Below are positions 7,777 through 36,865 of a DNA stretch of 64,000 nt, one piece after another; position 1 is the stretch's first letter; every line of letters begins with the position of its first letter. Under the pieces are notes generated by a model. It was given only the letters and a program-made list of their open reading frames with translations. It made no database searches and was not told where the DNA came from. The translations under genes were made by a program, and so were the position numbers. Source of the stretch: a virus (lineage: Duplodnaviria; Caudoviricetes). The stretch lies in IMG/VR virus record IMGVR_UViG_3300027333_000001. One strand, written 5' to 3'.

Positions 7777-7778
7777 GA

Positions 7779-10234: not shown

Positions 10235-10387
10235 AGTCTAGTTTCCTTTTGGTCTTTTAATAGACCTTTTGTGTTCGCTAGTTTTTTGTTTGTAAGAAAG
10301 CCATGATCTCTCAAAAGATTGTGGCTTTTTTATTTTGTATTTATATTTTTGTCTTTTATTAAACCTACCGATGATAAAGGACAAAAA

Positions 10388-10894: not shown

Positions 10895-10933
10895 TAAATA
10901 TCTTTTTATTGAACTTAATAAAAGGATATCCGA

Positions 10934-11639: not shown

Positions 11640-11640
11640 T

Positions 11641-11970
11641 ATGTTTTCAATGGAAATGGGTCGTCAAATCCTATTGCTTATCCAACAGGGAAAGACAATT
11701 AAAGAAGTAGGCGAGATTTTATCTTTACCTGCTAGAACTATACATAGGCATAAAAAGAAATATCAAGAACTCACAAATATAGATATGTCTATAGAATATA
11801 ATCAGCATTTATTTGCATACAAGTTATATCTAGCAGGAATGCCTATGAAAGATATAGCTAGATTTTTAAACTATAAACGATATAACAATGTTTTGTCTAT
11901 CATCCAAAAATATAAGAAATCTAAGATCAAAATCGATCTTAAAATTCACACAATAGGAATCATAGAATGA
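11641..11970 (+). CDS. Tandem helix-turn-helix DNA-binding protein
   Basis: Two HTH-like segments (GKTIKEVGEILSLPARTIHRH; GMPMKDIARFLN); ATG 11641 after AAAGGA. Confidence 0.65.
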   Translation: MFSMEMGRQILLLIQQGKTIKEVGEILSLPARTIHRHKKKYQELTNIDMSIEYNQHLFAYKLYLAGMPMKDIARFLNYKRYNNVLSIIQKYKKSKIKIDLKIHTIGIIE

Positions 11971-12605: not shown

Positions 12606-12661
12606 TAAATTATTTATCTAATATTCTTTTGTAGATTTTCTTTCTACAAAGGACTAAAAAA

Positions 12662-13555: not shown

Positions 13556-13559
13556 AAAT

Positions 13560-13588
13560 TTGCCAATTCCTTATTAAAATCCTATAAG
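13560..13588 (+). promoter_or_regulatory. Sigma70-like promoter of recA
   Basis: TTGCCA-N17-TATAAG. Confidence 0.6.
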
Positions 13589-13623
13589 ATGAGATACCTT
13601 TCAAGTCCATAGGAGTTATCAAT

Positions 13624-14850
13624 ATGGCAAAAGCTAACCTTTCCAAAATCGCAGGTGTTTTAAAAGCATCTCTTAAAGAAGATTTTGTAGTTCAACTTGA
13701 CGATTCTAAAGTCAATTCCACAACACCCCATGTTTCCACAGGATCAATCGCTTTAGATTATCTTATTGGTGGCAAAGAAAATGAAAGAGGTGTTAAACCA
13801 TGCCCCGGACTTCCTAGAGGTCGTATTACTAATATCTATGGCAATGCAGGTGCAGGTAAAACTACTATTGCATTACAAACTGCCGCCCAAGTTTGCCAAG
13901 CTGGTGGTACTGTTCTTTACATCGATTGGGAAAATGAAGTAGAACCTAAATATGCTCAAGCATTAGGTGTACCTGTCACTGATAAAGATAAATTCATGCT
14001 CGTTCAACCTGATACTCTTGAAACAGGTTTAAAGTACATGGCTATGTTTGCAAGAGAAGGTGTTGATCTTATTGTGATTGACAGTGTTGGCGCCGCAGTT
14101 CCACAAGCTATGTTTGAAAAACAAGATGGTGAAACACAAATGGCAGTTGGTGCTAATGCTCGTGTATGGTCTGTTTATCTTCCTAAACTAAAAAATATCA
14201 TTGCAAAGCATAATACCTGTGTGATTGGTATTTCTCAATTAAGAGAAGCTATTGGTGGCATGACATCCTTTGCGGGTCCAAAAACTACACCACAAGGTGG
14301 TAAAGCATGGCAGTATTACTCAACCTTGCAAATCAAATTATCTGTTGTTCAAAAAGAAAAAGGCAAACTTTGGGATGGTCTACAAGGTAAGATGATTGAA
14401 ACTGTAACAGGTGCAGTAGTAAGGGCACATTTAGATAAATGTAAAGTATCTGATAGTGTTCACCATGAAGTAGATTTCTTCTTAATGAGTGGCAAAGGTG
14501 TAGATAATGAAAGAACTATTATTGATCTAGCTATTAATAGTGGTGTGATCAGTAAAAAAGGTGCTTGGTTCTCATGGCAATCACCAACAGGTGAATTAAG
14601 ATCTCAAGGTCTTGCAGGTTTTAAAGAACAATTACAAGCTATGGATGGTGGTCTAGTCGCTTTGTTTACTCAAGTTAAACCTTTCATCTCTCAAAATAAA
14701 GATGGTGGTGTTGCTCCAGCAGATGCAACAGCAACTGCATCAGAAGAAAAAGCACCAGCTAAAAATAGCAAGCTAGATAAAATGGCAAGTGCTAACCTTG
14801 ATGATATGTTTGGTGATGATGATGAAGAATTTTTTGATGATGAAGAATAA
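13624..14850 (+). CDS. recA: RecA recombinase
   Basis: STGSIALD, GNAGAGKTT, YIDWEN, IVIDSV, ISQLRE, TPQGGKA and KGAWF; acidic tail; no intein. Confidence 0.93.
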   Translation: MAKANLSKIAGVLKASLKEDFVVQLDDSKVNSTTPHVSTGSIALDYLIGGKENERGVKPCPGLPRGRITNIYGNAGAGKTTIALQTAAQVCQAGGTVLYIDWENEVEPKYAQALGVPVTDKDKFMLVQPDTLETGLKYMAMFAREGVDLIVIDSVGAAVPQAMFEKQDGETQMAVGANARVWSVYLPKLKNIIAKHNTCVIGISQLREAIGGMTSFAGPKTTPQGGKAWQYYSTLQIKLSVVQKEKGKLWDGLQGKMIETVTGAVVRAHLDKCKVSDSVHHEVDFFLMSGKGVDNERTIIDLAINSGVISKKGAWFSWQSPTGELRSQGLAGFKEQLQAMDGGLVALFTQVKPFISQNKDGGVAPADATATASEEKAPAKNSKLDKMASANLDDMFGDDDEEFFDDEE

Positions 14851-14911
14851 ATAAATGAGATAAAACTTGCTCAATATCTTATAATATAAAACAATCATAA
14901 GAGCAGGTTTA

Positions 14912-16312
14912 TTGAAAATGAAAATAAAAGTAGAGAACTTTCAATCTATAAGTAAAGCAGAAATAGAAGTAAAAGGTCTAACTGTAATCACAGGTCAAAA
15001 TAATACAGGTAAATCTGCTTTAGCTAGATCAATCATAGGTGCATTTACAAATTTAAGAGGAAATGCTTTTGTTAGACAAGGTACTCAAGTTGCTAAAGTA
15101 GATATATCCTTTGATGATGGTAATCGTCTTATTTGGTCTAAAGGTAAAAATACAAACCAATATGAGATCAATAGTAAACTCATTCAGAAAGTAGGCAGTG
15201 ATACACCTGATGAAGTTTTAAATTTAGGTGTTAAAGCAGTCAATGTAGATGGCAAAGAAATTCATCCACAATTTGCTAAACAATTTCAACAAGTGTTTTT
15301 AATAGATTTGCCACCATCATCATTAGCAAGTGCCTTATCCGATGTAGATGTTATTCAAAAGCTAGAACAAGCTACTGCTAGTTTAAGAACAGATATAAAA
15401 AATCAAAACTCTTTAAACAATGCGAAAAGAGATGAATATAATAAAGAGAAGATTAAGCTAGAACAATTTGAAGGACTAGATGAACTTGAATTACAAGCAC
15501 AGCGAATAGAATTATTAGAAACACAAATAGAGGCAGTGGCAACCAAGTTATCCGTCTTGCAGGAAATTAAGATTAAGAAAGATAAGCTAGAAAAGATAGT
15601 CTTAATACTTAATGATTTATTACATATCTTATTCACAAAAGACAGTGAAGAGATTTTAGTATTAGATGAGAAGATCCGAACAGCGAATGGAATTAAAGTT
15701 AAGAGAGATGTTTTAGAAAACATATTAGATTTAAAATGTGATTTAGATGAGATTTCATTTTGTGAATTGAATGTAGACCTTATGCAGATGGCAAACCAAT
15801 TAAAAGATATGGTCAAAATCTCAAAGGTAAAAAATGTTTTAACGAAAGTGTTGGATTTAGAAAATGATTTGGTAAATACAGGTTTAACAAATATAAGCAT
15901 AGAACAAGTCATAGATAGGTTATCCGTGCTTGAATCTAATCAAAGACAAAGAAAGGTCTTAAAAGAAATGTTAAACAATCAATCCGATTTAAACTCAATT
16001 TTCTTTAGTGATTTTGATCTGAACCTAGTGGATCATTTAGAAAACTTAGTATCTTTAAGAAAGCAAAGAACAAAGGTAAAGTTATTGACTTCTATTTTAG
16101 AAGTAGGTTTAAAGAATATTCATATTAGTGATATGCCAGCATTAGACGATTCTTTATTTGAGATCAAAAAACAAAAGGAAATGTTATTTAAAGATATTCA
16201 AAATATAAATGAAGATTTGATAAGTGTTTCAGAGGAATTAGAAAATTTAAATGAACAGATAGGTGATACCTGTCCATTATGCCAAAGTGGTTTACATGAT
16301 CATTTGGCTTAA
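14912..16312 (+). CDS. Rad50/SbcC-like SMC ATPase, N-terminal half (Walker A, coiled coil, CxxC hook)
   Basis: KVENFQS, ITGQNNTGKS, Q-loop, long coiled coil, ending at CPLC; no Walker B or signature motif. Confidence 0.8.
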   Translation: MKMKIKVENFQSISKAEIEVKGLTVITGQNNTGKSALARSIIGAFTNLRGNAFVRQGTQVAKVDISFDDGNRLIWSKGKNTNQYEINSKLIQKVGSDTPDEVLNLGVKAVNVDGKEIHPQFAKQFQQVFLIDLPPSSLASALSDVDVIQKLEQATASLRTDIKNQNSLNNAKRDEYNKEKIKLEQFEGLDELELQAQRIELLETQIEAVATKLSVLQEIKIKKDKLEKIVLILNDLLHILFTKDSEEILVLDEKIRTANGIKVKRDVLENILDLKCDLDEISFCELNVDLMQMANQLKDMVKISKVKNVLTKVLDLENDLVNTGLTNISIEQVIDRLSVLESNQRQRKVLKEMLNNQSDLNSIFFSDFDLNLVDHLENLVSLRKQRTKVKLLTSILEVGLKNIHISDMPALDDSLFEIKKQKEMLFKDIQNINEDLISVSEELENLNEQIGDTCPLCQSGLHDHLA

Positions 16313-16506
16313 TATAAATTGTAATGATGTGCGAGGAAATGCACAGGATTTATTTTTACAGAGTACGATATATCAAACAAAAAACACAGGACCGCATGGC
16401 ATAAATTTAATGCACAATCCTAGAAATGCTATTTCTTTATATATGAGTAAAGCATTGATTAAATCACAGTGGATAAATACGAATGATGTCTATATAGGTA
16501 TAAAAA

Positions 16507-17076
16507 CTATTTAAATAAGTGTTTCATAAGGGATTTTTTAAGTTCTTTATATTTTTCTAATTTTTCTTTTGTCTGCTCAATAAGATTATCTAGATCAGAT
16601 AAGCAAGTGGCTATTTTATGCTGTTCTTGAAAGATAGGTGTTTGAATCGCTATTATACTAACATCTTTTTTTTGAAGATTTGGTATCCCCGTACCTACTT
16701 TTCTTGACATAATATCTTTTTCGATATGCTTCAAAAATTGAAAAAGGTATTGAGTGTCAATATTTGATTTAATATTTAATAGTGTATAGCAATGACCACC
16801 TGCCCAAAAATCTTCTCTCATAAGATTTACAAATCCTGTAGATGCACCACCTTCACTAATCGTAATCGTATTAGCTGGTGTGTTATAAGAATGGTAGTAA
16901 CCTGATGGTTCTACACCACCATTTATAAATTTATATCTATTTACTATGCTTTGTTTTTCAAATAACTTTGTTTTATTGATTTGATCGCCTTTGATAATAC
17001 TTCCAACATCACCAAGTTTCTTCTCTTCCCAATCAGGAAAATTACTACCATCATTCCTCTTAAACCTTAATGTCAT
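16507..17076 (-). CDS. hsdS: Half-size type I restriction-modification specificity subunit (single TRD)
   Basis: LRFKRNDGSNFPDWEEKKLGDV N-terminal conserved region, one TRD, PIFQEQHKIATCLSDLD and KKSLMKHLF C-terminal region; about 190 aa. Confidence 0.85.
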   Translation of the reverse strand: MTLRFKRNDGSNFPDWEEKKLGDVGSIIKGDQINKTKLFEKQSIVNRYKFINGGVEPSGYYHSYNTPANTITISEGGASTGFVNLMREDFWAGGHCYTLLNIKSNIDTQYLFQFLKHIEKDIMSRKVGTGIPNLQKKDVSIIAIQTPIFQEQHKIATCLSDLDNLIEQTKEKLEKYKELKKSLMKHLFK

Positions 17077-17081
17077 ATTAC

Positions 17082-18533
17082 TCAATCCTCTAAAAGAATA
17101 TCTAAACCTAATTCTACAAGATGTTCATTCACTTTACTTGTTAAAATCTTTAAGTCTTTATTGATCTGATTGATCTGTTTTAAAGTATCTACTAAATCAA
17201 TCTCTTCTTCTTCCTCAATATTACTTATATACCTTGAGATATTTAGATTAAAATCATTATTTTTAATCTCATCTAAACTAGCCAAATGAGAATATTTAGC
17301 TATCTCTTTTCTTCCTGCATAAGTGTCTATGATTTTTTCTATATGCTGATCAGTGATAAGATTGGTTTTCTTTTCTTTAATGAAATCATTAGATCCATCT
17401 ATGAAAAGAATATCTGTATTTTGCCTATTCTTTTTTAAGACTAAAACACAAGTACCAATACTTGTATTTGTAAAGAGATTTTCAGGTAATCCTATAATAG
17501 CATCTACCAAATTCTCTTCTATTAAATGCTTTCTGATCTTTTCTTCACTAGCACCACGAAATAAAACACCATGTGGCAAAAGCACAGCTGAAATACCATC
17601 ATCTGAAAGGTGGTGTGCTGAATGCTGGACAAAAGCAAAATCTGCTTTTGTTTTAGGTGCTAATAGACCACCAAATCTAATATCATTATTAGGAGTCCAT
17701 GATAAACTATATGGTGGATTAGCAACGATTGCATCAAACTTTAAATTTAAATGTAAAGGTTGCTTTAAAGTATCACCATGCTTAATATCAAAATTATTTA
17801 AATGAACATTGTGCATAACCATGTTCATTCTACATAGGTTATATGTAGTCTTCATAATTTCTTGACCATAGAAATTATCCACAGGTATCTCTTTGGCAAC
17901 ATTTAAAAGTAAAGAACCTGATCCACAGCTTGGATCATATACATTTCTTAAAGATGTCTTATTTAAACAAACAATTTTAGATAAGACTTTGGAAACTTGT
18001 TGTGGTGTGTAGAACTCACCAAAATTTCCACCATTAAAATACTCATAGACATCACCTAAAATATCTTTTTCACCTGTCAATGATGGCATCTTATTCAAGT
18101 TATTTAAGATATGTAAAAGATCACTTTTACCAAGAGATGAGAGATTGATATTCTCAAATAAAGAACTGTCTATTTCTTTAAACACATTCTTTAAATCATC
18201 TACAATGTCTAAACCTTTATTTGCTTTTTCTACTAGAAAGCTAAATAAGAGATCTTCATTTAAGAAGAAACCTAAATCTTTAAAAGCATCTTCTTTAGAT
18301 GAGTATGTCACCATCTTTTCAGAAATATGTTTATAGAAGATAAAAGCTAAAATGAAATCTCTAAATTCCATATCAGATAATGAACCTCTAATAGAATATG
18401 CAATATCTAATAGCTTTTCTACTTTGATTTCTTCTGCATTAGATAATGCTGATTTAGTAGCAGGTTTAGATAATGCAGGTGTTTCAGATTTAACTTCTAG
18501 TGTTTCATCTTCAAATAGAGAAACTTGTTTCAT
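17082..18533 (-). CDS. hsdM: Type I restriction-modification N6-adenine methyltransferase subunit
   Basis: GEFYTPQQVS, VYDPSCGSGSLL, YGQEI, VANPPY, LPHGVLFRG and FNLNISRY; extra N-terminal MKQVSLF plus linker. Confidence 0.92.
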   Translation of the reverse strand: MKQVSLFEDETLEVKSETPALSKPATKSALSNAEEIKVEKLLDIAYSIRGSLSDMEFRDFILAFIFYKHISEKMVTYSSKEDAFKDLGFFLNEDLLFSFLVEKANKGLDIVDDLKNVFKEIDSSLFENINLSSLGKSDLLHILNNLNKMPSLTGEKDILGDVYEYFNGGNFGEFYTPQQVSKVLSKIVCLNKTSLRNVYDPSCGSGSLLLNVAKEIPVDNFYGQEIMKTTYNLCRMNMVMHNVHLNNFDIKHGDTLKQPLHLNLKFDAIVANPPYSLSWTPNNDIRFGGLLAPKTKADFAFVQHSAHHLSDDGISAVLLPHGVLFRGASEEKIRKHLIEENLVDAIIGLPENLFTNTSIGTCVLVLKKNRQNTDILFIDGSNDFIKEKKTNLITDQHIEKIIDTYAGRKEIAKYSHLASLDEIKNNDFNLNISRYISNIEEEEEIDLVDTLKQINQINKDLKILTSKVNEHLVELGLDILLED

Positions 18534-18568
18534 GTTTTTCAATCCTTTTCTTTTTCTTTTTATAAATC

Positions 18569-18820
18569 TTACAAAGACATATACTGTTTTACAGTGTTAA
18601 GAATATCATTATAATCATCATCTAAGGTATATTGACCAAAAAATATCTCATCTTCATCTATATCTTCATCTTGTGTGAAAATGAATATTTTCAATAAGTT
18701 CTGATGCTTGCTAAATTCAATATCTGCATGAGTATTTTTTCCAAATACTTCAAAACAATTTGGATGAATATCTACAACTTCAAAGTCTGCTGATAAATCA
18801 TAAAATAGTTTGTCAATCAT
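18569..18820 (-). CDS. Small hypothetical protein
   Basis: 83-aa acidic ORF with AAAGGAAAA SD. Confidence 0.55.
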   Translation of the reverse strand: MIDKLFYDLSADFEVVDIHPNCFEVFGKNTHADIEFSKHQNLLKIFIFTQDEDIDEDEIFFGQYTLDDDYNDILNTVKQYMSL

Positions 18821-18895
18821 TTTGAGTTTTCCTTTTTTGTGTTAAGTAGTAATAAACATAACTGTTGAGTAGTGATTTCTTTACTAGACATTTTT

Positions 18896-19087
18896 TTAAT
18901 CTTTAACTTTGAGAGTGAAAACACCTTGTCCTGTGACAACATCAATCTCAACAAAGTGACTTAAAAGGTGTAGTGCATCAATCACTTCTTCATCATCAGA
19001 ATTGTTTTCAACAAAAGACAACAAGGTGTCTTCACAGATCAAAGTGTCCTTATCGAACATTTGAATAATGGTATTTTGACTAAGCAT
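18896..19087 (-). CDS. Small hypothetical protein
   Basis: ATG 19087 after AAAGGA, downstream of a conserved bipartite motif. Confidence 0.55.
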   Translation of the reverse strand: MLSQNTIIQMFDKDTLICEDTLLSFVENNSDDEEVIDALHLLSHFVEIDVVTGQGVFTLKVKD

Positions 19088-19132
19088 TTTGCTTTGTCCT
19101 TTCTGATTTATTTCAATCATTCATTTATATGT

Positions 19133-19164
19133 ATAAACACTTGTTCTAAAGAATAATTGCAAGT
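19133..19164 (-). promoter_or_regulatory. Bipartite motif ACTTGCAAT-N14-AGTGTTTAT (putative phage promoter)
   Basis: Exact match to a motif repeated 6-7 times in the window, always upstream of a small gene in the same orientation. Confidence 0.65.
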
Positions 19165-19184
19165 CCACTTAAAAATCTTATAAG
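19157..19184 (+). promoter_or_regulatory. Sigma70-like promoter of the Mre11 operon
   Basis: TTGCAA-N16-TATAAG; shares the palindromic TTGCAA with the divergent motif. Confidence 0.55.
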
Positions 19185-19216
19185 TATTTTTGATAAACAT
19201 AAAGGATTGAAAACCT

Positions 19217-20182
19217 ATGATTAAACTCGTTTGGCGAACAGATGTGCATTTTAGTGATTACACACCATCTAAAAGAACAGGCAATTGGACGGATGATGTT
19301 TCAAAGAAATTAGAATGGATTGGCAAATATACACATGATCATAATATAGATGCAGTTATAGATGGTGGTGATTTCTTTGATATTAAAACACCATCTAAAA
19401 ACTCACATTCTCTTGTAGGTAGAACAGCTAAAATCCATAAAGGTTATGCTTGTCCTGTCTATACTCTTGTAGGCAACCACGATGTCAAATATGGCAATAT
19501 AGACTATATAGATGAACAGCCTTTAGGTGTCTTATTTAATGCAGGTGTCTTTGATCAGTTTGGATATGATAAAGAAATTATCTTTGAGAAAGACAATGTA
19601 AAAGTAAGACTTGTAGGTATTCCATATCATGGTACTTCTTACGATTGGGATTTAATCCGATCTATAAAGAAAGGTGATGAAGATTATTTATTAGTAGCCT
19701 GTCATTTATTAGCCAGCGAAAAAGGTGGTGTAGGTGCTATGTATGAAGGTGAAGATATAGTGCCTTATAGTGATTTATTACATCAAGGTGTAGATGGTTG
19801 GTTCTTTGGTCATTGGCATAAGGATCAAGGCATAGTTATTAAAGATAAAACTACAATCGTAAATACAGGTAGCTTAACTCGTGGTGCTTTACATTTAGAT
19901 GATTTGGAAAGAAATCCGTGTATTGTAGAAGTGATTGCAGATAAACAAGGCATTTCATTTAATAGGATTGACTTACCTGTAAGAGATGTCTTAAGTGCTT
20001 TTAAGGTAGAGGAAACAATAGCTAAAAGAGAAAATAAAGATAAGATGGAAGAGGTTGTAGAAAAGATGAGATCACTGTCTATTGAAAATCATGGCATGAG
20101 TTTAAGAGATAGGATTATGCAAGTAAAAGATGTAGAAGATATAGTGAAACAAATCGCAGTAGAATATTTAGAAAAAATATAA
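19217..20182 (+). CDS. Mre11/SbcD-like metallophosphoesterase nuclease
   Basis: TDVH, GGDFFD, VGNHD, GHWH and NTGSLTR motifs. Confidence 0.88.
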   Translation: MIKLVWRTDVHFSDYTPSKRTGNWTDDVSKKLEWIGKYTHDHNIDAVIDGGDFFDIKTPSKNSHSLVGRTAKIHKGYACPVYTLVGNHDVKYGNIDYIDEQPLGVLFNAGVFDQFGYDKEIIFEKDNVKVRLVGIPYHGTSYDWDLIRSIKKGDEDYLLVACHLLASEKGGVGAMYEGEDIVPYSDLLHQGVDGWFFGHWHKDQGIVIKDKTTIVNTGSLTRGALHLDDLERNPCIVEVIADKQGISFNRIDLPVRDVLSAFKVEETIAKRENKDKMEEVVEKMRSLSIENHGMSLRDRIMQVKDVEDIVKQIAVEYLEKI

Positions 20183-29553: not shown

Positions 29554-30330
29554 ATGAGAAATCAATTTTTATCTCGCAGAGCATCAGATGATATCCTAGA
29601 GCAACAAATTGCAAATTACATTCTTAATTTATTAGAAAAAGATGCAATTAGAAAGTTCCGAAAAAAAACAATGCCTTTGAAAAATGGAAATGGTTTTGTT
29701 TTTTACTATGGTAATACTAAAGGTGTTGTCCAACAACATCAGAATAAAGTTGTATATTCAGTATTATCTCTTGGTGATTCTGAAATGCCTGAAGGTGAAG
29801 TTATTGACTATGTTGTTTATAATCTTCCTGTAAACACTATGGGTGATATTTATCCTAATTCCCCTGAATATAAATTTTTACAAAAAGCTATGTTCGATTT
29901 CTTTGAAGATATGAACACAGTTCCTCGTAATACACAGTGGTCTCTATCTCCATCATCCATTCCACGATTTGCATCAGATGATGTCCTAGAACAACAAATT
30001 GCAGATTACATTCTTAATTTATTAGAAAAAGATGCAATTAGAAAGTTCCGAACAAAAACAAGACCATTGAAAATGGGAAATGGTTTCTCTTTTTTCTTTG
30101 GTAATATCATAGGAACTGTATCCAAAAAAAATAAACAGGTTGTCTTTTATGCTAAATATCCTGAAGGTGATCCTAACTATGAATATGAAGACCAATTAAT
30201 CTTGAATCTTCCTGTCAATACTATGGGTGATATTTATCCTAATTCCCCTGAATATAAAGTTTTACAAAAATCTATGTTTGATTTCTTTATAAATATGAAC
30301 TTAGGTCGTACAAAGTATTCACCCAATTAA
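29554..30330 (+). CDS. Hypothetical protein made of two ~130-aa tandem repeats
   Basis: ATG 29554 after AAAGGA; ASDD(I/V)LEQQIA...NLPVNTMGDIYPNSPEYK occurs twice. Confidence 0.7.
   Translation: MRNQFLSRRASDDILEQQIANYILNLLEKDAIRKFRKKTMPLKNGNGFVFYYGNTKGVVQQHQNKVVYSVLSLGDSEMPEGEVIDYVVYNLPVNTMGDIYPNSPEYKFLQKAMFDFFEDMNTVPRNTQWSLSPSSIPRFASDDVLEQQIADYILNLLEKDAIRKFRTKTRPLKMGNGFSFFFGNIIGTVSKKNKQVVFYAKYPEGDPNYEYEDQLILNLPVNTMGDIYPNSPEYKVLQKSMFDFFINMNLGRTKYSPN
29581..30300 (+). repeat. Intragenic direct duplication, period about 390 nt
   Basis: Near-identical blocks at 29581-29670 vs 29971-30060 and 29821-29916 vs 30205-30300, with divergent middles. Confidence 0.85.
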
Positions 30331-30445
30331 ACCAACCTTATTGCATCTTTCATTTGTTTTGCTCCTACTTTTTATTTCTTTCTGCATCTTTTAAGATCAA
30401 AAATATGCAGATAACTCATTCAAGGTGCAGATAAAAATAAATCCA

Positions 30446-31762
30446 TTATTGTTTTTTCTTATCCACCACCATCTTTACACTTGTCAATAATACACCTATA
30501 CTCACTGCATTACTCACTATCTCTAATGCTCTACTTTTCGGAAATGGTATCTTTAACTTTTTTTCATCTATAACCATTCCACTATTCTTTTTCACTATCT
30601 CTAAACTTGATCTCAATGCCTTATCTAAAACTTCATTTCCTGTTTCTATGCTTGCCAAACTTAATATCAATCCATCCTTTAATATCCCTGATCTCACTGC
30701 CTGCACTAATGAGATTATTAACTTTTCACATATTGCTCTTCTATGTTTTGCTTCCAGCTGTGTTACACCACCTACCTTTACTCTTAATAAACTACCTTGC
30801 AAATTGCTTATCCTTTGCTGTATCTGTTCTGCTTTATAAAATATCTTTTCCTGTGTTAATTCATATTGCAACTGATCTATTCTTTTCACTGTGCTGTCTA
30901 TCTGATCTTCATATTGCTCAACTAACATTTCCTTTTCTTTAAAGCATATCTCTAATGCACTGCCAAAATCTTCTTGATAGTCAAATTTCTTTAATCTAGT
31001 CACTATCTTTCCACCTGTGAAAGATGCCAAATCTTCTAACCATGATCCTTGATCAAATATCTTTGGACACTCTACTGCATAACATTCTATATTCCCTTTA
31101 TTGCGATTGAGATTGATTGTCTTTAAAGCATCACCTAATATTAAAGGTGCTACTATTACTACAGGTCTACCTTCTATCTGATTTTCTAAACATTCTTTAA
31201 TATCATCTAATGTCAATAATGGATAAGTAAAGAAAGCTACCATTGCTCCTTTAACACTCTTATCTTCTGTATATCCACTATATGTAGTTTTTGCTATAAA
31301 CGATTCACTGTGTAAAACTTCAAAGCTGGTGTTCTCACCTAACTCTATTGATATATGTGCATTACTATCACCTAATAAAAAGTCATATACAATTTCAGGC
31401 AGTTCTTCATTTAATACTTCTCTTGTCATTAGCTTTAAATCCTCTTTACTTGGACTACATTGCATTTGGTTTAAATTTACTAAATGCACAGGCAAGTCTT
31501 TATATGGATTTTTGATATAAGACAGGATAAGACTAGCTAGAATAAAGACAGCTGTTTTACAGCCATCTCCTTCACCACAGGTTTGGAAAAGAAAGTATTG
31601 TAGAGTTGGATTAGATTGCCATGCTAGAATAGTGGATTTAGCAGATGGATTGATAAGTATTTCATTATTTCTATAGAGAGCGATATTTTTATGGTTTGAT
31701 CCGTGAGAGATAGCAAGTAGTGTAGCTATTTCTTTAATGTCCTTTGCTAAGTTTTTCATCAT
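30446..31762 (-). CDS. Divergent, shortened GroEL/Cpn60-like chaperonin
   Basis: GEGDGCKT (cf. GDGTTT), LEDLASFTGG, QQRISNLQGSLLRVKVGG and NAVSIGVLLTSVKMVVD align with GroEL landmarks. Confidence 0.75.
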   Translation of the reverse strand: MMKNLAKDIKEIATLLAISHGSNHKNIALYRNNEILINPSAKSTILAWQSNPTLQYFLFQTCGEGDGCKTAVFILASLILSYIKNPYKDLPVHLVNLNQMQCSPSKEDLKLMTREVLNEELPEIVYDFLLGDSNAHISIELGENTSFEVLHSESFIAKTTYSGYTEDKSVKGAMVAFFTYPLLTLDDIKECLENQIEGRPVVIVAPLILGDALKTINLNRNKGNIECYAVECPKIFDQGSWLEDLASFTGGKIVTRLKKFDYQEDFGSALEICFKEKEMLVEQYEDQIDSTVKRIDQLQYELTQEKIFYKAEQIQQRISNLQGSLLRVKVGGVTQLEAKHRRAICEKLIISLVQAVRSGILKDGLILSLASIETGNEVLDKALRSSLEIVKKNSGMVIDEKKLKIPFPKSRALEIVSNAVSIGVLLTSVKMVVDKKKQ

Positions 31763-31843
31763 GTTAATATATCCATTGCTCTTAATAATCCTTTTATATT
31801 TTACAAGAGTTATAAATGTAAACACACAAAAGGATTTTTTAAA

Positions 31844-32116
31844 ATGTTTCGTAGATTACAAAACAATATTAGAAAAGCTAGTCCAATGGATGCTTATGCA
31901 CAGGTTTCTGATATTGCACAAGAAATTCAAGAATTAGTTGAGAATGGTTCTTCTCTTATTGAAAGAGAAGAGAAAGCTATTAGAAACGAAATGATTGAAA
32001 CACCAGCTATTCGTTCTTTAAAGAATCAAATTGATTCTGATTTATATGACATTTATCAATTGGCTAAGGCTTTAGAAAAAAAAGCTATCCTCATCCAAAA
32101 ATCTATGAAAGGTTAA
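31844..32116 (+). CDS. Small helical protein with basic RKAS leader
   Basis: MFRRLQNNIRKAS; AAAAGGA SD. Confidence 0.6.
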   Translation: MFRRLQNNIRKASPMDAYAQVSDIAQEIQELVENGSSLIEREEKAIRNEMIETPAIRSLKNQIDSDLYDIYQLAKALEKKAILIQKSMKG

Positions 32117-32122
32117 CCCATC

Positions 32123-32554
32123 ATGGCAAAGTTATTGACTGCTAATGAAAAAACACCCGGGTCTCCAAAGGGCGTGACTAGCTTCAAATATTCGGAAATG
32201 GAATACTATGACCGTATTCCTAAAGAACTCATTCCAAATGCTGATAAGGTTTTACAAAATCTACAAGTATTAAGAGATGTAGTAGGTAAACCAATTTTTA
32301 TCATGAGTGGGTTTAGGTCTCCAGAGAGGAATGAAGCCGTTGGTGGGGCGAAGAAATCGCAACATTGCGAGGGAAATGCCTGCGATATAAAAGTAAAAGA
32401 CACAGCACCTGAAGAAGTGGCAAAGTTGATTGAGAAATTAATTGCTGAAGGTAAAATGTGTCAAGGTGGACTTGGGACTTACTCTAGATCGACACCATCT
32501 GAGGGCTGGGTACATTATGATTGCAGAAATGTAAAAGCTAGATGGAATGGATGA
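32123..32554 (+). CDS. Peptidase M15A-family zinc peptidase (probable endolysin)
   Basis: SGFRSPERN, SQH..GNACDI and WVHYD zinc-ligand pattern. Confidence 0.85.
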   Translation: MAKLLTANEKTPGSPKGVTSFKYSEMEYYDRIPKELIPNADKVLQNLQVLRDVVGKPIFIMSGFRSPERNEAVGGAKKSQHCEGNACDIKVKDTAPEEVAKLIEKLIAEGKMCQGGLGTYSRSTPSEGWVHYDCRNVKARWNG

Positions 32555-32591
32555 TTAATAATTGATTTATTAAATTGCATTTGTTAAGATT

Positions 32592-32634
32592 AAAATAAAA
32601 AAGCCTTAATATGCTTTGCAGAGCATATTAAGGC
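32592..32634 (-). terminator. Intrinsic terminator (minus strand)
   Basis: Perfect 13-bp stem GCCTTAATATGCT/AGCATATTAAGGC (32603-32615 / 32622-32634), 6-nt loop, followed on the minus strand by TTTTTTATTTT. Confidence 0.85.
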
Positions 32635-32672
32635 ACATCCCAATAAACCTGAGAGAGAGGTCTAAATGAGTT
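32592..32672 (-). ncRNA. Candidate ~80-nt small RNA
   Basis: Lies between a TTGACA-N17-TAGAGT promoter and a terminator; no ORF; internal 7-bp hairpin with a CUCUCUC loop. Confidence 0.45.
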
Positions 32673-32678
32673 CAGATA

Positions 32679-32707
32679 ACTCTAAAGATATTGCTATTAT
32701 TTGTCAA
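32679..32707 (-). promoter_or_regulatory. Sigma70-type promoter pointing into the terminator
   Basis: TTGACA (32707-32702), N17, TAGAGT (32684-32679). Confidence 0.6.
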
Positions 32708-32719
32708 GACAGAATTAGT

Positions 32720-33868
32720 CTAAAACAAGCTAACCATCTTTCTCTTATCACAATATATACTGCCTGCTACCACTACTCTCTCTTCTTTCAAAATAGACAA
32801 AACCCCAATCTCATATCCACTCTCTAAATATCCTATTAGCTTTTTATATAAGGCATCTTTGTTTTTAGCATTTTTGAATTTTATGCTTTTTTCAATATGT
32901 AGTTTTTTATTATATAAGGCTATATAACCTTGAGTAAATGTCCATCCTGCTTTTAAATGTGATAACACATCATTTGTGTGAACTGTTTTCTTTTCACCTG
33001 TCAATAGAAAGATCATTTCTTTATTCGCTTTACATTCTTTCATTGCTTTACAATGCTTTTCTTTAACTTCAGGTCTTGAATGTCTTTCTTTCAATGATTT
33101 ACTTTTCTTTTCTTTAAATTCAGGTCTTGACCAATTTTCTTTCTGTGCTTTACTCATCTTTTCTTTAACTTCAGGTCTTGCCAAAGTTTCTTTCAATGAT
33201 TTACTTCTCTTTTCTTTAAATTCAGGTCTTGACCAATTTTCTTTAGATGATTTACTCATCTTTTCTTTATATTCGGAACTTGAATGACTTTCTTTCTGTA
33301 CCTTACTTTGCTTTTCTTTAAATTCAGGTCTTGACCAATTTTCTTTGGATGCTTTACTTTTCTTTTCTTTATATTCAGGTCTTGACCACATTTCTTTAAG
33401 TGCTTTACTCAGTTTCTCTTTAATTTCAGGTCTTGCACAAGCATCTTTAAGTGCTTTACTTTGCTTTTCTTTGCTTTCTTCACTTAAGCCACCACCACCA
33501 AATCTGCCACCTGTCTTTAAATTATAGCATACCTTTAATTCATCTCTATATCTCTTAATTACATCTTCTGTGATGAGTAATCCTTCTGCCAAATAAGCAT
33601 CCTGTGCAGTAGTAAAGAATTGCAATCTGTAATGTTGAAAGTTTAAATATCCGTGTTTCTTAATAGCATTTTTAAATGCTATGCCTGATCCAATATAGCC
33701 ATCATTAAGGTCTTTTGTTGTGTGCTTACCTAGATAGAATTTATTGTTAATGGTGTTAATAGTGAGATAGGTAAAATGATAGAAACCATCTGGATCAGTA
33801 AAGGGAATGACAGAATTAGGACTATAAGTATTAAGAATTTGATTAGTAAAGGTTTGAGCATCACTCAT
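32720..33868 (-). CDS. Free-standing GIY-YIG (Seg-like) homing endonuclease with NUMOD3-type repeats
   Basis: FTYLTINTINNKFYLGKH...YIGSG, catalytic-type E in AYLAE, CYNL; about eight 17-aa RPExKEKxSK repeats. Confidence 0.85.
   Translation of the reverse strand: MSDAQTFTNQILNTYSPNSVIPFTDPDGFYHFTYLTINTINNKFYLGKHTTKDLNDGYIGSGIAFKNAIKKHGYLNFQHYRLQFFTTAQDAYLAEGLLITEDVIKRYRDELKVCYNLKTGGRFGGGGLSEESKEKQSKALKDACARPEIKEKLSKALKEMWSRPEYKEKKSKASKENWSRPEFKEKQSKVQKESHSSSEYKEKMSKSSKENWSRPEFKEKRSKSLKETLARPEVKEKMSKAQKENWSRPEFKEKKSKSLKERHSRPEVKEKHCKAMKECKANKEMIFLLTGEKKTVHTNDVLSHLKAGWTFTQGYIALYNKKLHIEKSIKFKNAKNKDALYKKLIGYLESGYEIGVLSILKEERVVVAGSIYCDKRKMVSLF
33040..33480 (-). repeat. Tandem 51-nt / 17-aa repeats in the endonuclease DNA-binding region
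   Basis: Recurrent TTCAGGTCTTG(A/C) on the + strand every ~51 nt. Confidence 0.85.
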
Positions 33869-33871
33869 ATA

Positions 33872-33903
33872 AATATCCTATTGGTCTAGTTTAGGATATT
33901 ATA
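33872..33903 (-). promoter_or_regulatory. RBS-sequestering hairpin plus lone TATAAT upstream of the GIY-YIG gene
   Basis: 9-bp perfect stem AATATCCTA/TAGGATATT; the 3' arm contains the AGGA SD; TATAAT at 33903-33898 overlaps the 5' arm. Confidence 0.65.
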
Positions 33904-33918
33904 CAAGCTAGATATAAA

Positions 33919-36510
33919 TTACATCTTATTTACAGTTTCAATGAATTTTTTAGCAATCGTTTGAATACCTTTACGAGTAGTAGCAACACCTGTCACTAAA
34001 GCACACATTTCAGCAAACCATTCAAGAACATCTTTCATCGCATAATTAGAAGGACAGACAATAGTTCTAGCAAGGCTGTCTTCAGAAATTTCTTGTTTTT
34101 GTTTAGTTTCAAGGTTTTGGAAAACATAAACAGCACCTTCACCTCTTTTACCTTTAATTTCTATGCAAACACTATCATCTTCTGTAGCATATCGTACTAC
34201 AAAATGTACTTTGTATTCAGAAAGAAGAGATCCTATGACAGGTAAAGAATCTTTAATACAAGAATCCTTTGTAGTCATTTTAAAAAGATTGATCATTTCT
34301 TGATTTTTCAAAAAGTTAGGTAACTCTTCATTATGGAATTTATGTCCAAACTCATGCACAATATCAGAAATTCTTTCTTTAGAATCTTTTTTTCTATATG
34401 GATCAGTGTAGAAAGCAATAATACCTGTATCTACTTCATAAGATGCGGCGGCATCACTAGAATCTGCTAATCCTCGTTTTTTAAGATCTGCATATTTACC
34501 AACAAAGACACGATCTCTAAGAACATTTTTAAATTTAGTAAGTGGTGAGTTCTTAATAATGTGGATTGCTCTTTCAAAATCATTTTTAATAAGTAGCAGT
34601 GTTTTTTCATTAATCTCTGAAATAAAGATAAGTTTAAAATTACCTAACTTAAGGATAACTTCAGATACTTCTCTTGCACCTTCTGATTCAATATATTCAT
34701 TGTTTAAGTTTAAATCAATAGGATATTTAGCACCTCTCCATAATCTAATGCTTGGATCATAATATCCAAATTTCCATTCCTTTTCTCTTTTCTCTAATTT
34801 AGAGATTTCAAATTGGATATTGTTTTTCTCTTTTAATTCTTCTTCTTTGTAATTATTAGGATACTTATTCATCTTATAAAGAAGTTGAGTTAGTTTAGAG
34901 ATTTGAAAAATAGTAGCCTCTTTAGATAATTCCTGTGGCAATTTACCTGAACCATAACAATTATCTGATTTCATCCAATTACTAAAGGTATATCCATGTG
35001 CATGGATTGTGCCATCTTCATTTAAAGCCTGATGTCTAAGACAGGCTTGGCAAGTTCCATATGCAGGATGGAACTTCAAAATAAATTTAATCTTTTCATT
35101 TAAAGGTAATTCAGCAGGTGGTATTAATTCTTCTTCTTTATATGTACTAACAAAATTAGGAAGTTCAATAGTTTTTCTTCTAACATCAGTAGTTAATATA
35201 TCTATGCCACTCTTACTACCAAAAGGATGGAAAATATATCCTTGATTGGCAGTGAAAGATGCTTCAAGTGTAAAATAGATATCAAAATCTAGACTGCCAA
35301 TCATGTCTATTTTCATAGTGAATAAACTTGACCATGCTTTTCTTTGTATATCTCTAACCATCTTGTTTTTTAAACTATCTGCAATATCCTTTCCTTTTGC
35401 GATTTCAAGATCTATCTCAAAAACAATCTTTTTGTTATCATCACTTAGTTTATATTTATAGTAGTCTATTAAGTGTTCATACTGTCCTGTTGAATAAATT
35501 ATATCTTGTGTGTATCCACGAATAATTTGAACAATACCTGTTGTAGAAATCACCTTCTCTTTTTCTTCTTTTTTAGTAGGTGCAGGTTTAGTTTTTTTAC
35601 CTGCACTAGGTTTTTCGTCTGTACTGACTGATGATTCTGTATGAAATAAATTTGAATCAGGTTGTGTTCCGATAATATTAAGTTGAGGTTTGTAATTAGA
35701 CAGGTGTTCATAAAAAGATCTAAATTTCATTAATGAAAATTGTGAAACATCGGAGTATTCTTTAATTTCACCGATTGTAAGATTTGCATAATCAGTAAAA
35801 AGACTGTTAATTGCAGTAGACCATGAAGAATCAGGAACATTCCAGCTATCTTCAAAAAGACTTACATCAATCTTCGGAATAAAAATATTAGAACCTTCTG
35901 TATTACCATAAAAGTATCTACCATTTAAAGCTATCTGTTCAAATTGATTGTTTGCTAATTCTTCATCACCTGCCCTTGCAACATATGAAAGAAGAGGTTT
36001 AGGTATGATTGCAGGTTCTGTTTTAAAATTAAAAGCTGATCTTTTTGATTCACTTTTTATCCAATAACTATCTGTGTTACTTGCATTTAACTGAAATCGT
36101 TCATATTCTGATGTGAAGTATTTTTTCTGTTCAGCAGTCAACTCTAGTACACCAAGATCTTCTTTTTTACCTTCTAAAAAGAGTTCAAAACTCAAGGCTT
36201 TTCTTTCAGGTGTCATATTTTTTAATGGTACAGATTTAGATGTAACAGTACCTAAAGGTGATTTAGATGTTTTATATTTTTTATCTCTATAAAATTCATC
36301 ATATTGAGGTACAATTACAGGTGTTTCCAACAATGGATACTCATTCAATTCTTCTATTTTTTTAGAGATGGCAGATTTGGCTCTTGTTAGTGGAAGTAAT
36401 TGATATCGTCCAAAACAATCTGCTAAAAACAAACGAAATCCTTTATTCGCAAGGATTATATCTTTAAGTTTCATTTTATCATCAAAAATGAGAGTAGATT
36501 TTTTTTTCAT
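33919..36510 (-). CDS. Large protein with a Zn-finger-like motif and C-terminal zincin (HExxH) domain
   Basis: CQAC...HAHG...CYGSG; IVHEFGHKFH; C-terminal SNYAMKDVLEWFAE. Confidence 0.65.
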   Translation of the reverse strand: MKKKSTLIFDDKMKLKDIILANKGFRLFLADCFGRYQLLPLTRAKSAISKKIEELNEYPLLETPVIVPQYDEFYRDKKYKTSKSPLGTVTSKSVPLKNMTPERKALSFELFLEGKKEDLGVLELTAEQKKYFTSEYERFQLNASNTDSYWIKSESKRSAFNFKTEPAIIPKPLLSYVARAGDEELANNQFEQIALNGRYFYGNTEGSNIFIPKIDVSLFEDSWNVPDSSWSTAINSLFTDYANLTIGEIKEYSDVSQFSLMKFRSFYEHLSNYKPQLNIIGTQPDSNLFHTESSVSTDEKPSAGKKTKPAPTKKEEKEKVISTTGIVQIIRGYTQDIIYSTGQYEHLIDYYKYKLSDDNKKIVFEIDLEIAKGKDIADSLKNKMVRDIQRKAWSSLFTMKIDMIGSLDFDIYFTLEASFTANQGYIFHPFGSKSGIDILTTDVRRKTIELPNFVSTYKEEELIPPAELPLNEKIKFILKFHPAYGTCQACLRHQALNEDGTIHAHGYTFSNWMKSDNCYGSGKLPQELSKEATIFQISKLTQLLYKMNKYPNNYKEEELKEKNNIQFEISKLEKREKEWKFGYYDPSIRLWRGAKYPIDLNLNNEYIESEGAREVSEVILKLGNFKLIFISEINEKTLLLIKNDFERAIHIIKNSPLTKFKNVLRDRVFVGKYADLKKRGLADSSDAAASYEVDTGIIAFYTDPYRKKDSKERISDIVHEFGHKFHNEELPNFLKNQEMINLFKMTTKDSCIKDSLPVIGSLLSEYKVHFVVRYATEDDSVCIEIKGKRGEGAVYVFQNLETKQKQEISEDSLARTIVCPSNYAMKDVLEWFAEMCALVTGVATTRKGIQTIAKKFIETVNKM

Positions 36511-36571
36511 AGAGCATATCCTTTTTTTAATTTAATCACTCATTAAAAAAGGATATGTATAAATAATTTAT

Positions 36572-36865
36572 TTATTTACTTGCCATATCACTAGCTTGTA
36601 CTGCCATATCCACAATAACCATATCACCAGCTACAGACATATCAGTAGTAGATGCCATATCAATAATACTGCTATCACTTTCAACTGCCATATCACTTTC
36701 ATTGCCTGCTGTCATATCAATACTAGACAAAGCAATATCTGTAATAATCATATCGATTAAAGTAGCATCTGTAGATTGCATATCTGATTGAGTAGCAGGT
36801 GTTTCTTTCTTTTCTTCACCACCACAGGCAGTAAGAATAAGCATAACGAGTAGTAAAGTTTTCAT
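36572..36865 (-). CDS. Small lipoprotein with Asp-Met repeats
   Basis: Signal peptide with lipobox LTAC followed by nine DM dipeptides in an acidic low-complexity region. Confidence 0.75.
   Translation of the reverse strand: MKTLLLVMLILTACGGEEKKETPATQSDMQSTDATLIDMIITDIALSSIDMTAGNESDMAVESDSSIIDMASTTDMSVAGDMVIVDMAVQASDMASK

What the first reader, a model, noticed from the sequence alone, without database searches (positions are those of the whole stretch)
32592..32707. Candidate small RNA with an exposed CUCUCUC loop beside the homing endonuclease and endolysin
Seen on the minus strand: TTGACA-N17-TAGAGT, then about 80 nt with no ORF. That stretch holds hairpin 1 (UAGACCU / CUCUCUC loop / AGGUUUA, one G-U pair that only works on this strand) and a perfect 13-bp terminator with a U-tract. 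Promoter, wobble pair and U-tract all point the same way. Inference: a discrete sRNA whose loop is complementary to GAGAG/AGAGG-type ribosome-binding sites (the phage's own SD is mostly AAAGGA). It could be an anti-host translational regulator, an antisense control of read-through from the M15 endolysin, or an RNA travelling with the GIY-YIG element.
Basis: partly seen in the sequence, partly recalled or inferred. Interest (0 to 1): 0.65.

Follow-up and report, generated by a model that had tools for sequence, protein, structure and literature searches.

The report
Antisense RNA module beside phage endolysin
A conserved, roughly 80-base structured RNA element lies on the minus strand next to a jumbo phage's endolysin gene; it mirrors the ribosome-binding site and start codon of a gene that in related phages encodes a selfish homing endonuclease, so it most likely acts as a local antisense brake, not a general anti-host regulator.

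Summary
TTGACA-N17-TAGAGT (32707-32679), hairpin 1 with a CUCUCUC loop and a perfect 13-bp terminator with a U-tract (32634-32594) are all on the minus strand, and no minus-strand ORF lies between them.

The module is conserved in seven related metagenomic or viral loci and always sits just after the endolysin gene. It is single-copy in a complete 316-kb relative. Both helices show compensatory changes. Wobble pairs fall almost only on the minus strand (16 G-U cells against 1 A-C), so a minus-strand RNA is under selection.

The "CUCUCUC loop" is the reverse complement of a strong SD (GAGAGAGAGG) and ATG at 32666. In relatives that ATG starts a plus-strand GIY-YIG homing endonuclease (HEG). In the window only a 15-codon remnant of that gene survives, inside a 53-codon ORF. 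The loop sequence is not conserved. The module does not travel with the window's minus-strand HEG, because an HEG-less relative keeps it.

Best reading (0.45): a cis-antisense RNA of the IS10 RNA-OUT / IS200 art200 / cyanophage CfrI kind, sharing its terminator with the HEG/863-aa operon. Main rival (0.3): only a structured 3' UTR plus terminator. No transcript data exist. It is a new member of a known kind, of moderate interest.

The parts
32702..32707 (-). -35-like hexamer TTGACA; on the plus strand it forms codons 13-14 (TGT CAA) of the stub ORF
   Evidence: TCTTGAC is invariant in all 7 homologous modules. Three independent rearrangement junctions (window, L003, L004) lie within about 7 nt upstream of it.
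32679..32684 (-). -10-like hexamer TAGAGT, 17 nt after the -35
   Evidence: The 17-nt spacing and TA...T are kept in 6 of 7 relatives (TAGTAT, TATTAT, TATCTT); L004 has TAAATA.
32595..32673 (-). Predicted RNA of about 79 nt. The 5' end is inferred 6-7 nt after the -10, and the 3' end falls in the U-tract.
   Evidence: Inference. Covariance model R1 matches 32588-32672 at 86 bits. No Rfam family matches.
32639..32670 (-). Two-tier stem-loop P1: outer helix CUCA/UGGG, inner helix UAGACCU/AGGUUUA, loop CUCUCUC (32657-32651)
   Evidence: Compensatory changes are seen against L004 and L003. In P1 there are 13 G-U cells against 1 A-C cell. P1 folds at -8.7 kcal/mol on the minus strand and -3.3 on the plus strand.
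32635..32638 (-). Unpaired linker AUGU, part of the block UGGGAUGUGCC that is identical in 6 of 7 modules
   Evidence: The plus-strand form GGCACATCCCA occurs only once in the window.
32594..32634 (-). Intrinsic terminator: 13-bp perfect stem (32634-32603), 6-nt loop and a U-tract. It also ends the HEG/863-aa operon.
   Evidence: The stem is kept with 5 pairs changed on both sides. The U-tract is on the minus strand in all 7 loci.
32666..32827 (+). 53-codon stub ORF. Its first 15 codons (MSSDNSKDIAIICQD) are the remnant N-terminus of a plus-strand GIY-YIG HEG. The rest runs antisense to the 3' end of the minus-strand HEG.
   Evidence: The first 15 residues match 10/15 to the N-terminus of HEG P0152, and homology ends at residue 15. 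Full-length plus-strand HEGs start at this position in L005, L071, L022 and L083.
32651..32660 (+). Shine-Dalgarno GAGAGAGAGG, 5 nt before the ATG at 32666; it is the exact complement of the 'CUCUCUC loop' region
   Evidence: Relatives have GGAGGT, GTGAGGT or GCGAGGT at the same place.
32562..32590 (+). Weak plus-strand promoter-like site TTGATT-N17-TAAGAT (8/12) between the endolysin stop and the hairpin
   Evidence: Read. Counterparts are TTGACT-N17-TAAAAT in L005 (10/12) and TTGATT-N17-TATAAG in L071/L022. It is absent in L004, which also lacks the plus-strand ATG. Speculative.
32720..33868 (-). GIY-YIG / NUMOD3-repeat homing endonuclease (382 aa), an insertion relative to L004
   Evidence: PHROG 314 homing endonuclease, E = 4.5e-31. 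Aligned with the plus-strand HEGs of relatives but lacking their 17-aa leader. Absent in L004.
32123..32554 (+). M15 peptidase endolysin; it has no plus-strand terminator, so transcripts can read into the module
   Evidence: Pfam PF08291, E = 4.7e-19. On the plus strand the hairpin is followed by ACATCCC, with no U-tract.
33919..36510 (-). 863-aa gene of unknown function upstream of the HEG on the minus strand
   Evidence: It is 94.7% identical in DNA to L004, where it abuts the module directly and its stop codon TGA lies inside TTGACA.

Best explanation
The region is a conserved minus-strand RNA module made of a promoter-like site, a two-tier stem-loop P1, a short linker and an intrinsic terminator. 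It is anchored just downstream of the endolysin gene in this group of jumbo phages.

It most likely produces an RNA of about 80 nt that is fully complementary to the 5' UTR, Shine-Dalgarno sequence and start codon of the plus-strand ORF that follows the endolysin. In relatives that ORF is a GIY-YIG homing endonuclease. In the window it has been cut down to a 15-codon remnant inside a 53-codon stub.

The inferred mechanism is pairing with plus-strand transcripts, either endolysin read-through or transcripts from a weak local promoter. This would hide the SD and AUG and create a long duplex, keeping the selfish nuclease nearly silent. IS10 RNA-OUT and IS200 art200 do this for transposases, and cyanophage CfrI lies antisense to an HEG.

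In the window the same terminator also ends the minus-strand HEG/863-aa operon, so the RNA sequence is in any case present as that operon's 3' UTR.

Shown: sequence features, conservation, covariation, strand asymmetry, and the identity of the plus-strand ORF. Inferred: promoter activity, a discrete transcript, and repression.
For: Features are present and fold well.

Conservation:
- Homologous modules lie directly after the endolysin in L003, L005, L006, L022, L071, L083 and, in diverged form, L004.
- The module is single-copy in a complete 316-kb relative.

Structure:
- RNAalifold recovers P1 plus the terminator on the minus strand only (-12.8 against -7.2 kcal/mol).
- 91.5% of cells are paired against 82.7% in shuffles (0/500), and 9 pairs changed on both sides. 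Slid controls give 19-54%.
- There are 16 G-U cells against 1 A-C cell.
- P1 folds about twice as stably on the minus strand in 6 of 7 sequences.

Orientation and promoter:
- The minus-oriented U-tract and TTGAC-N17-TA...T persist in L005, L071, L022 and L083, where the adjacent gene is on the plus strand and no minus-strand gene ends there. L005 scores 11/12.
- Homology blocks in three independent arrangements end within about 7 nt upstream of the -35.
- Codon 13 varies as TGT/CGT/GGT (C/R/G) while GT stays fixed.

Plus-strand target:
- The plus-strand SD and ATG inside the RNA start GIY-YIG HEGs in relatives.
- The window keeps only the first 15 codons.

Precedents: PMC4513863, PMC5006887, PMC2984593.
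Against: - There is no expression data, and the phage and its host are uncultured.
- The promoter match is not enriched over chance in the window.
- The phage has another recurrent promoter-like motif, TTGCAA-N17-TGTTT (earlier notes), so use of host sigma-70 here is unproven.
- In 17 further HEG proteins, C-Q-[ED] and the following KIKIAKEFC are conserved at the protein level, so TTGAC conservation in HEG-bearing genomes can be explained by coding.
- L004's -10 (TAAATA) looks defective.
- In L071 a minus-strand ORF overlaps the HEG's 3' end. Antisense read-through across the HEG could therefore feed the terminator without a local promoter.
- In the window the HEG target is gone, so the RNA may be a relic.
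- Only about five independent lineages are available, and alignment A7 was fitted to the model.
Confidence: 0.45

Rival explanations
1. The region is only a structured 3' UTR and terminator. The 13-bp hairpin terminates the minus-strand HEG/863-aa operon, and P1 is a 3'-UTR element, for example a stabiliser against exonucleases. TTGACA-N17-TAGAGT is not a promoter; it is conserved because it encodes C-Q-E of the plus-strand HEG leader in relatives and was inherited recently by the window.
For: - The HEG stop at 32720 is 86 nt upstream of the only terminator, so the operon must end there.
- In L004 the 863-aa gene's stop codon lies inside TTGACA, and its -10 is poor.
- Promoter-like sites are not enriched.
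- CQ[ED][DN]K is conserved as protein in 17 HEGs.
Against: - In L005, L022, L071 and L083 no minus-strand gene ends at the module, yet the minus-oriented U-tract, the minus-specific P1 wobble pairs and the -35/-10 spacing are all kept.
- Three rearrangement junctions cluster just upstream of the -35, not anywhere in the 35 nt between P1 and the upstream gene.
Confidence: 0.3
2. The functional RNA is on the plus strand. The module is the 5' UTR of the gene downstream of the endolysin, with AAACCU pairing to the GAGGU Shine-Dalgarno and CCCAU pairing to AUGAG. This would be a T4 I-TevI-style translational lock on the HEG. The minus-strand features would be mirror images.
For: - Plus-strand folds of L071, L022 and L083 bury the SD in a 5+3-bp hairpin.
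- The SD, ATG and leader are conserved, and the HEGs start there.
- IS200 uses both an SD-sequestering 5' UTR hairpin and an antisense RNA (PMC4513863), so this reading may coexist with the best explanation.
Against: - RNAalifold finds no P1 on the plus strand.
- 16 cells that are G-U on the minus strand become C-A mismatches on the plus strand, against 1 in the reverse direction.
- Plus-strand P1 folds at only -3.3 to -6.5 kcal/mol.
- The U-tract is on the wrong side for the plus strand.
- L004 keeps P1, with compensatory changes, although the plus-strand ATG is deleted.
Confidence: 0.12
3. One reading: a trans-acting sRNA whose exposed CUCUCUC loop binds GAGAG/AGAGG-type ribosome-binding sites of host (or phage) mRNAs.
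For: - The C/U-rich loop is exposed in the window's fold.
- A Rho-independent terminator with a U-tail is typical of Hfq-type sRNAs.
- art200 was also discussed as a possible trans-actor (PMC4513863).
Against: - The loop sequence is kept only in the window and L004. It is GCGUU on an extended stem in L003/L005, and a 13-nt loop of different sequence (e.g. CGCUUUGUUUUUA in L083) in L071/L022/L083.
- Only the ACCUC core is shared, and that is the complement of the cis SD.
- In the window, no other ORF start is preceded by GAGAGAG.
- The host is unknown, so host targets cannot be tested.
Confidence: 0.08
4. A type I toxin-antitoxin-like pair: the 53-aa plus-strand peptide, which has a hydrophobic stretch LSLITIYTACYHYSLFF, would be a small toxin held in check by the antisense RNA.
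For: The geometry fits type I TA loci: a small ORF with a strong SD, and an antisense RNA over its RBS.
Against: - Beyond codon 15 the ORF is merely the antisense of the minus-strand HEG's C-terminal coding region, with no homologue.
- Relatives have a 340-600-aa HEG there, and L004 has no ORF.
Confidence: 0.03

Closest known systems
IS200 art200 and IS10 RNA-OUT (cis-antisense RNAs against transposase translation; PMC4513863, PMC5006887)
   Same: - A short (about 70-90 nt) stem-loop RNA.
- It is encoded opposite the 5' UTR, SD and AUG of a mobile-element nuclease/transposase gene.
- Its promoter lies inside or next to the first codons and points outwards.
- In IS200 the mRNA strand also carries a mirrored SD-sequestering structure.
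   Different: - There is no sequence or Rfam relationship.
- The target is a free-standing GIY-YIG homing endonuclease in a lytic jumbo phage, not a transposase.
- The module is anchored to the neighbouring endolysin gene, and different HEG bodies (or none) are found behind it. It therefore looks like part of the landing site, not of the mobile element.
- It is untested experimentally.
CfrI of cyanophage S-PM2 (Millard et al. 2010, as summarised in PMC2984593 and PMC12197685)
   Same: It is an antisense RNA in a lytic phage that lies opposite the start of a homing endonuclease gene and runs towards the 3' end of the upstream conserved gene. Its function is presumed to be regulatory.
   Different: - CfrI is about 225 nt and overlaps the psbA coding end. 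The RNA here is about 80 nt and stops 48 nt short of the endolysin stop codon.
- No homology was detected.
- In the window itself the plus-strand HEG is reduced to a 15-codon remnant.
Type I 3'-UTR-derived sRNAs (own promoter in the end of the upstream gene, terminator shared with the mRNA; DapZ/MicL class, from general knowledge)
   Same: - The RNA shares its terminator with the HEG/863-aa operon.
- The -35 lies 12 nt after the HEG stop. In L004 the -35 overlaps the 863-aa gene's stop codon.
   Different: - Those sRNAs act in trans through conserved seeds. Here the only conserved complementarity is to the opposite strand of the same locus.
T4 I-TevI/seg-type RBS-sequestering hairpins
   Same: It restrains HEG translation through structure at the SD.
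   Different: That mechanism works within the mRNA strand. Here the stable, covarying structure is on the opposite strand.

Membership tests
Intrinsic (Rho-independent) terminator | G+C-containing stem-loop immediately followed by a U-tract on the transcribed strand | tested here: met
   A 13-bp perfect stem, a 6-nt loop and UUUUUUAUUUU lie on the minus strand. The stem is kept by compensatory changes, and the U-tract is kept in all 7 loci.
Intrinsic (Rho-independent) terminator | Lies downstream of a gene on the same strand | tested here: met
   The HEG stop at 32720 is 86 nt upstream, with no other terminator between. In L005, L022, L071 and L083 there is no adjacent minus-strand gene.
Cis-antisense RBS-masking sRNA (RNA-OUT / art200 / sar type) | Perfect complementarity to the SD and start codon of a gene on the opposite strand | tested here: met
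   The RNA spans SD 32651-32660 and ATG 32666-32668 of the plus-strand ORF. In relatives that ORF is a full GIY-YIG HEG. In the window it is a stub.
Cis-antisense RBS-masking sRNA (RNA-OUT / art200 / sar type) | Own promoter, oriented outwards, within or near the first codons of the target | tested here: inconclusive
   TTGAC-N17-TA...T is kept in 6 of 7 loci. The consensus match is not enriched in the window, and it overlaps conserved codons C-Q-E.
Cis-antisense RBS-masking sRNA (RNA-OUT / art200 / sar type) | Stable stem-loop selected on the antisense strand | tested here: met
Cis-antisense RBS-masking sRNA (RNA-OUT / art200 / sar type) | Discrete transcript and repression of the target | not testable with these tools
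   The phage is uncultured and no RNA data are at hand.
CfrI (cyanophage S-PM2 antisense RNA) | Antisense to an HEG start and overlapping the upstream gene's coding end | tested here: not met
   The RNA is antisense to the HEG start in relatives, but it ends at about 32595, 40 nt or more beyond the endolysin stop (32552-32554). There is no sequence similarity and no Rfam hit. The likeness is in layout only.
   The CUCUCUC loop is not conserved. No other ORF start in the window is preceded by GAGAGAG. The host genome is unknown.
Any Rfam family | Match at or near the gathering score | tested here: not met
   The best overlapping hit is snoR160 at 22 bits against a gathering score of 42, E = 3.3, which is chance.

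The most novel reading that the evidence does not exclude
The module could be a standing 'antisense gate' built into a homing-endonuclease landing site. It would be a phage-backbone RNA gene next to the endolysin that silences whichever nuclease gene lands behind the shared 15-codon leader. It might also cut endolysin read-through transcripts free of that gene. This would be a genome's own RNA-level containment of its selfish elements, kept even after the plus-strand HEG was lost.
Probability: 0.25. Interest if true: 0.6.

Novelty: new member of a known kind. Interest (0 to 1): 0.4.

Why it matters
How free-standing homing endonucleases are kept from harming their phage is known mostly from T4 (RBS hairpins, late promoters). 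The only reported antisense RNA at a phage HEG that I found, CfrI, has no known function. A small, conserved, easily cloned module that mirrors an HEG's ribosome-binding site would give a testable second example. It would also link HEG control to the well-studied transposase antisense systems. In addition, it marks the endolysin 3' flank as a hot spot in these jumbo phages where HEGs, HEG chimeras or even a CRISPR-like array replace one another. The stakes are moderate: the principle is known, and nothing here is shown experimentally.

Tried and rejected
Searches that gave nothing useful:
- Nucleotide and protein searches of the INPHARED phage collection gave no match.
- Exact-motif and single-protein scans of IMG/VR gave nothing.
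- The looser patterns in genome contigs and IMG/VR gave only chance hits, apart from re-finding the already known L081. nhmmer, BLAST and inspection confirmed this; L082, L179 and L206 are unrelated.
- Rfam gave no credible family.
- The search of earlier findings by sequence gave nothing relevant.

Tools not available:
- No whole genome is held for the window.
The 340-350-kb contigs that carry the window's own proteins and HEG P0146 therefore could not be fetched.

Ideas rejected:
- The window's HEG borrowed the old tail of the 863-aa gene. The tail YC.KR.M.SLF is native to this HEG family.
- GGCACATCCCA is a recurrent phage promoter. It occurs once in the window.
- The RNA travels with the HEG.

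Inconclusive test: using the amino acids at leader positions 5-7 and 13 in 17 more HEGs to separate promoter constraint from coding constraint did not settle the question.

Full report
**1. What is in the window**

- TTGACA (32707-32702), a 17-nt spacer, and TAGAGT (32684-32679).
- A hairpin UAGACCU/CUCUCUC/AGGUUUA (32664-32644) with one G-U pair.
- A perfect 13-bp terminator stem (32634-32603) followed by UUUUUUAUUUU.

The 86-nt RNA folds at -27.7 kcal/mol, with z = -4.5 against dinucleotide shuffles. The fold adds an outer helix CUCA/UGGG around hairpin 1. No minus-strand ORF of 30 aa or more lies in the stretch, and no Rfam family matches.

The flanking genes are:
- an M15 endolysin on the plus strand, 32123-32554;
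- a GIY-YIG/NUMOD3-repeat homing endonuclease (HEG) on the minus strand, 32720-33868;
- an 863-aa gene on the minus strand, 33919-36510.

The promoter match alone is not remarkable. Perfect TTGACA-N16-18-TAnnnT occurs 3 times in the window against 6 expected. Sigma-70-like sites are, if anything, depleted relative to shuffles.

**2.

The plus strand carries GAGAGAGAGG (32651-32660), then 5 nt, then ATG (32666), which opens a 53-codon ORF (32666-32827). The 'exposed CUCUCUC loop' is therefore the reverse complement of a strong Shine-Dalgarno (SD) sequence at the same locus. The TTGACA box corresponds to codons 13-14 (TGT CAA) of that ORF.

**3. Relatives**

The phage is absent from the INPHARED collection. 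A profile of endolysin homologues retrieved 80 metagenomic and 80 IMG/VR loci. nhmmer and a covariance model find the module in the following places:
- the window itself;
- L003, L005, L006 (cut by the contig end), L022 and L071;
- L083 (= L081), from a complete 316-kb IMG/VR genome;
- L004, in diverged form.

The module always lies directly after the endolysin stop, and it occurs once in the 316-kb genome.

The contexts differ:
- In L005, L071, L022 and L083 the plus-strand ATG inside the module starts a 337-582-aa GIY-YIG HEG (MSY.H.ND..I.CQEDK...YH.IYLT).
- L003 has the same 15-codon leader fused to a different N-terminal domain. Its C-terminal repeats match those of L005's HEG.
- L004 has no HEG at all. 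The endolysin stop runs into the A-run of the hairpin, the plus-strand ATG is removed by a 17-nt deletion, and the 863-aa gene's stop codon TGA lies inside TTGACA.

The window's stub begins MSSDNSKDIAIICQD. This matches 10 of 15 residues at the N-terminus of HEG P0152, and homology stops at residue 15. The window therefore once had, or recombined with, a plus-strand HEG locus.

Its present minus-strand HEG is a homologue (about 41% identity) that lacks the leader. The module does not travel with that HEG:
- L004 keeps the module without any HEG.
- The closest homologue of the window's HEG, a second copy at L022 11029-12147, has no module.

**4. Which strand is selected**

RNAalifold on the minus strand recovers P1 (outer and inner helix) plus the terminator at -12.8 kcal/mol. 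On the plus strand it finds only the terminator hairpin, at -7.2 kcal/mol.

On the model-fitted alignment A7:
- 91.5% of cells are paired, against 82.7% in shuffles (0 of 500 shuffles reach the observed value).
- 9 of 23 pairs show changes on both sides.
- Slid registers give 19-54% paired.

Examples of compensatory change:
- Window against L004, outer helix: CUCA/UGGG becomes CUUU/AAAG.
- Window against L004, inner helix: UAGACCU/AGGUUUA becomes UAAGCCA/UGGUUUA. The G-U pair moves by one position and the closing pair flips.
- Terminator: the A-U pairs of the window become G-C in L003, and the stem is rebuilt in L071/L022/L083 and in L004.

Sixteen cells are G-U on the minus strand, which are C-A mismatches on the plus strand. 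Only one cell goes the other way. P1 alone folds at -8.7 to -11.2 kcal/mol on the minus strand and -3.3 to -6.5 on the plus strand in six of seven sequences. The U-tract is on the minus side everywhere.

Caveats: there are only about five independent lineages, several wobble positions are inherited, and A7 was fitted to the model.

**5. Is there an independent promoter?**

For:
- TCTTGAC is invariant in all seven modules.
- The 17-nt spacer is constant, and the -10 keeps TA...T in six of seven (TAGAGT, TAGTAT, TATTAT, TATCTT). L005 scores 11/12.
- These features and the minus-oriented terminator persist in four loci where the neighbouring gene is on the plus strand.
- Three independent rearrangement junctions (window, L003, L004) fall within about 7 nt upstream of the -35.
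- Codon 13 changes as TGT/CGT/GGT (Cys/Arg/Gly) while the bases forming TTGAC stay fixed.

Against:
- In 17 further HEG proteins, C-Q-[ED]-[DN]-K-I-K-I-A-K-E-F-C is conserved as protein. Coding constraint can therefore explain TTGAC in HEG-bearing genomes.
- L004's -10 is TAAATA.
- In L071 a minus-strand ORF overlaps the HEG's 3' end, so long antisense read-through could reach the terminator.
- The phage has its own recurrent bipartite motif, TTGCAA-N17-TGTTT (earlier notes; not tested here).

I put a discrete transcript at about even odds.

**6. Mechanism**

The best-supported reading is a cis-antisense RNA that covers the whole 5' UTR, SD and AUG of the plus-strand gene behind the endolysin.

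The endolysin has no plus-strand terminator, so late read-through would enter that gene. A weak plus-strand promoter-like site may also feed it:
- window: TTGATT-N17-TAAGAT, 32562-32590;
- L005: TTGACT-N17-TAAAAT, 10/12;
- L004: absent.

Pairing would block ribosome binding and create a duplex of about 80 bp. This is the logic of IS10 RNA-OUT (PMC5006887) and IS200 art200. In IS200 an SD-sequestering hairpin on the mRNA strand acts in parallel (PMC4513863). Here a weaker plus-strand AAACCU/GAGGU pairing could play that role.

The nearest phage precedent is CfrI of cyanophage S-PM2. It is an RNA of about 225 nt, antisense to an HEG and to psbA, and its function is unknown (PMC2984593, PMC12197685).

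In the window the target HEG is gone. The RNA may therefore be a recent relic, may act on endolysin read-through, or may simply serve as the operon's 3' UTR and terminator.

**7. Verdict**

The trans-acting anti-RBS idea is not supported:
- the loop is conserved only in the window and L004;
- only the ACCUC core, which is the complement of the cis SD, is shared;
- no other ORF start in the window is preceded by GAGAGAG.

The finding is a new member of a known kind (cis-antisense control of a mobile-element nuclease). It is not homologous to any described RNA family and has not been tested experimentally.

Noticed in passing
L002:6439-6950 (same in L001:2665 onwards): In two close relatives (endolysin 88% identical) the module is replaced by a CRISPR-like array. 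It has nine copies of a ~28-nt repeat (GGTAAATCCCTACAYACATAGGGTAGAC, with an internal palindrome) at a strict 61-nt period, starting right after the endolysin stop. No cas genes were looked for.
   Followed up: partly
L003:4668-6299: A chimeric HEG. It has the same 15-codon leader and C-terminal repeats as L005's GIY-YIG HEG, but a different N-terminal (nuclease) domain joined exactly after ...PCQE. This suggests domain swapping at the leader junction.
   Followed up: partly
L007:3838-3920: Only the last ~15 codons of a plus-strand HEG (..VVYCDKRKMWGLL*) remain directly after the endolysin. The module and the rest of the HEG are deleted.
   Followed up: no
window 31701-32552 vs 33928-36600 compared with L004: Sharp mosaicism. 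The 863-aa gene is 94.7% identical to L004 in DNA, while the endolysin region is only 75% identical. A recombination boundary therefore lies at the HEG/module.
   Followed up: partly
window 33922-33927 and 32735-32740 (minus strand): The hexamer AAGATG occurs at both edges of the HEG insertion relative to L004: at the end of the 863-aa gene and near the end of the HEG. It could be microhomology or chance.
   Followed up: no
L022:11029-12147: A second GIY-YIG HEG in the same relative, 42% identical over the full length to the window's HEG and without the RNA module.
   Followed up: partly
window 1-20000 and 30000-35500: Sigma-70-like promoter matches are fewer than in dinucleotide shuffles (74 against 106 +/- 10, and 22 against 27 +/- 5). 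Terminator-like hairpins are about twice the expected number in 1-20000 (13 against 6.6).
   Followed up: no
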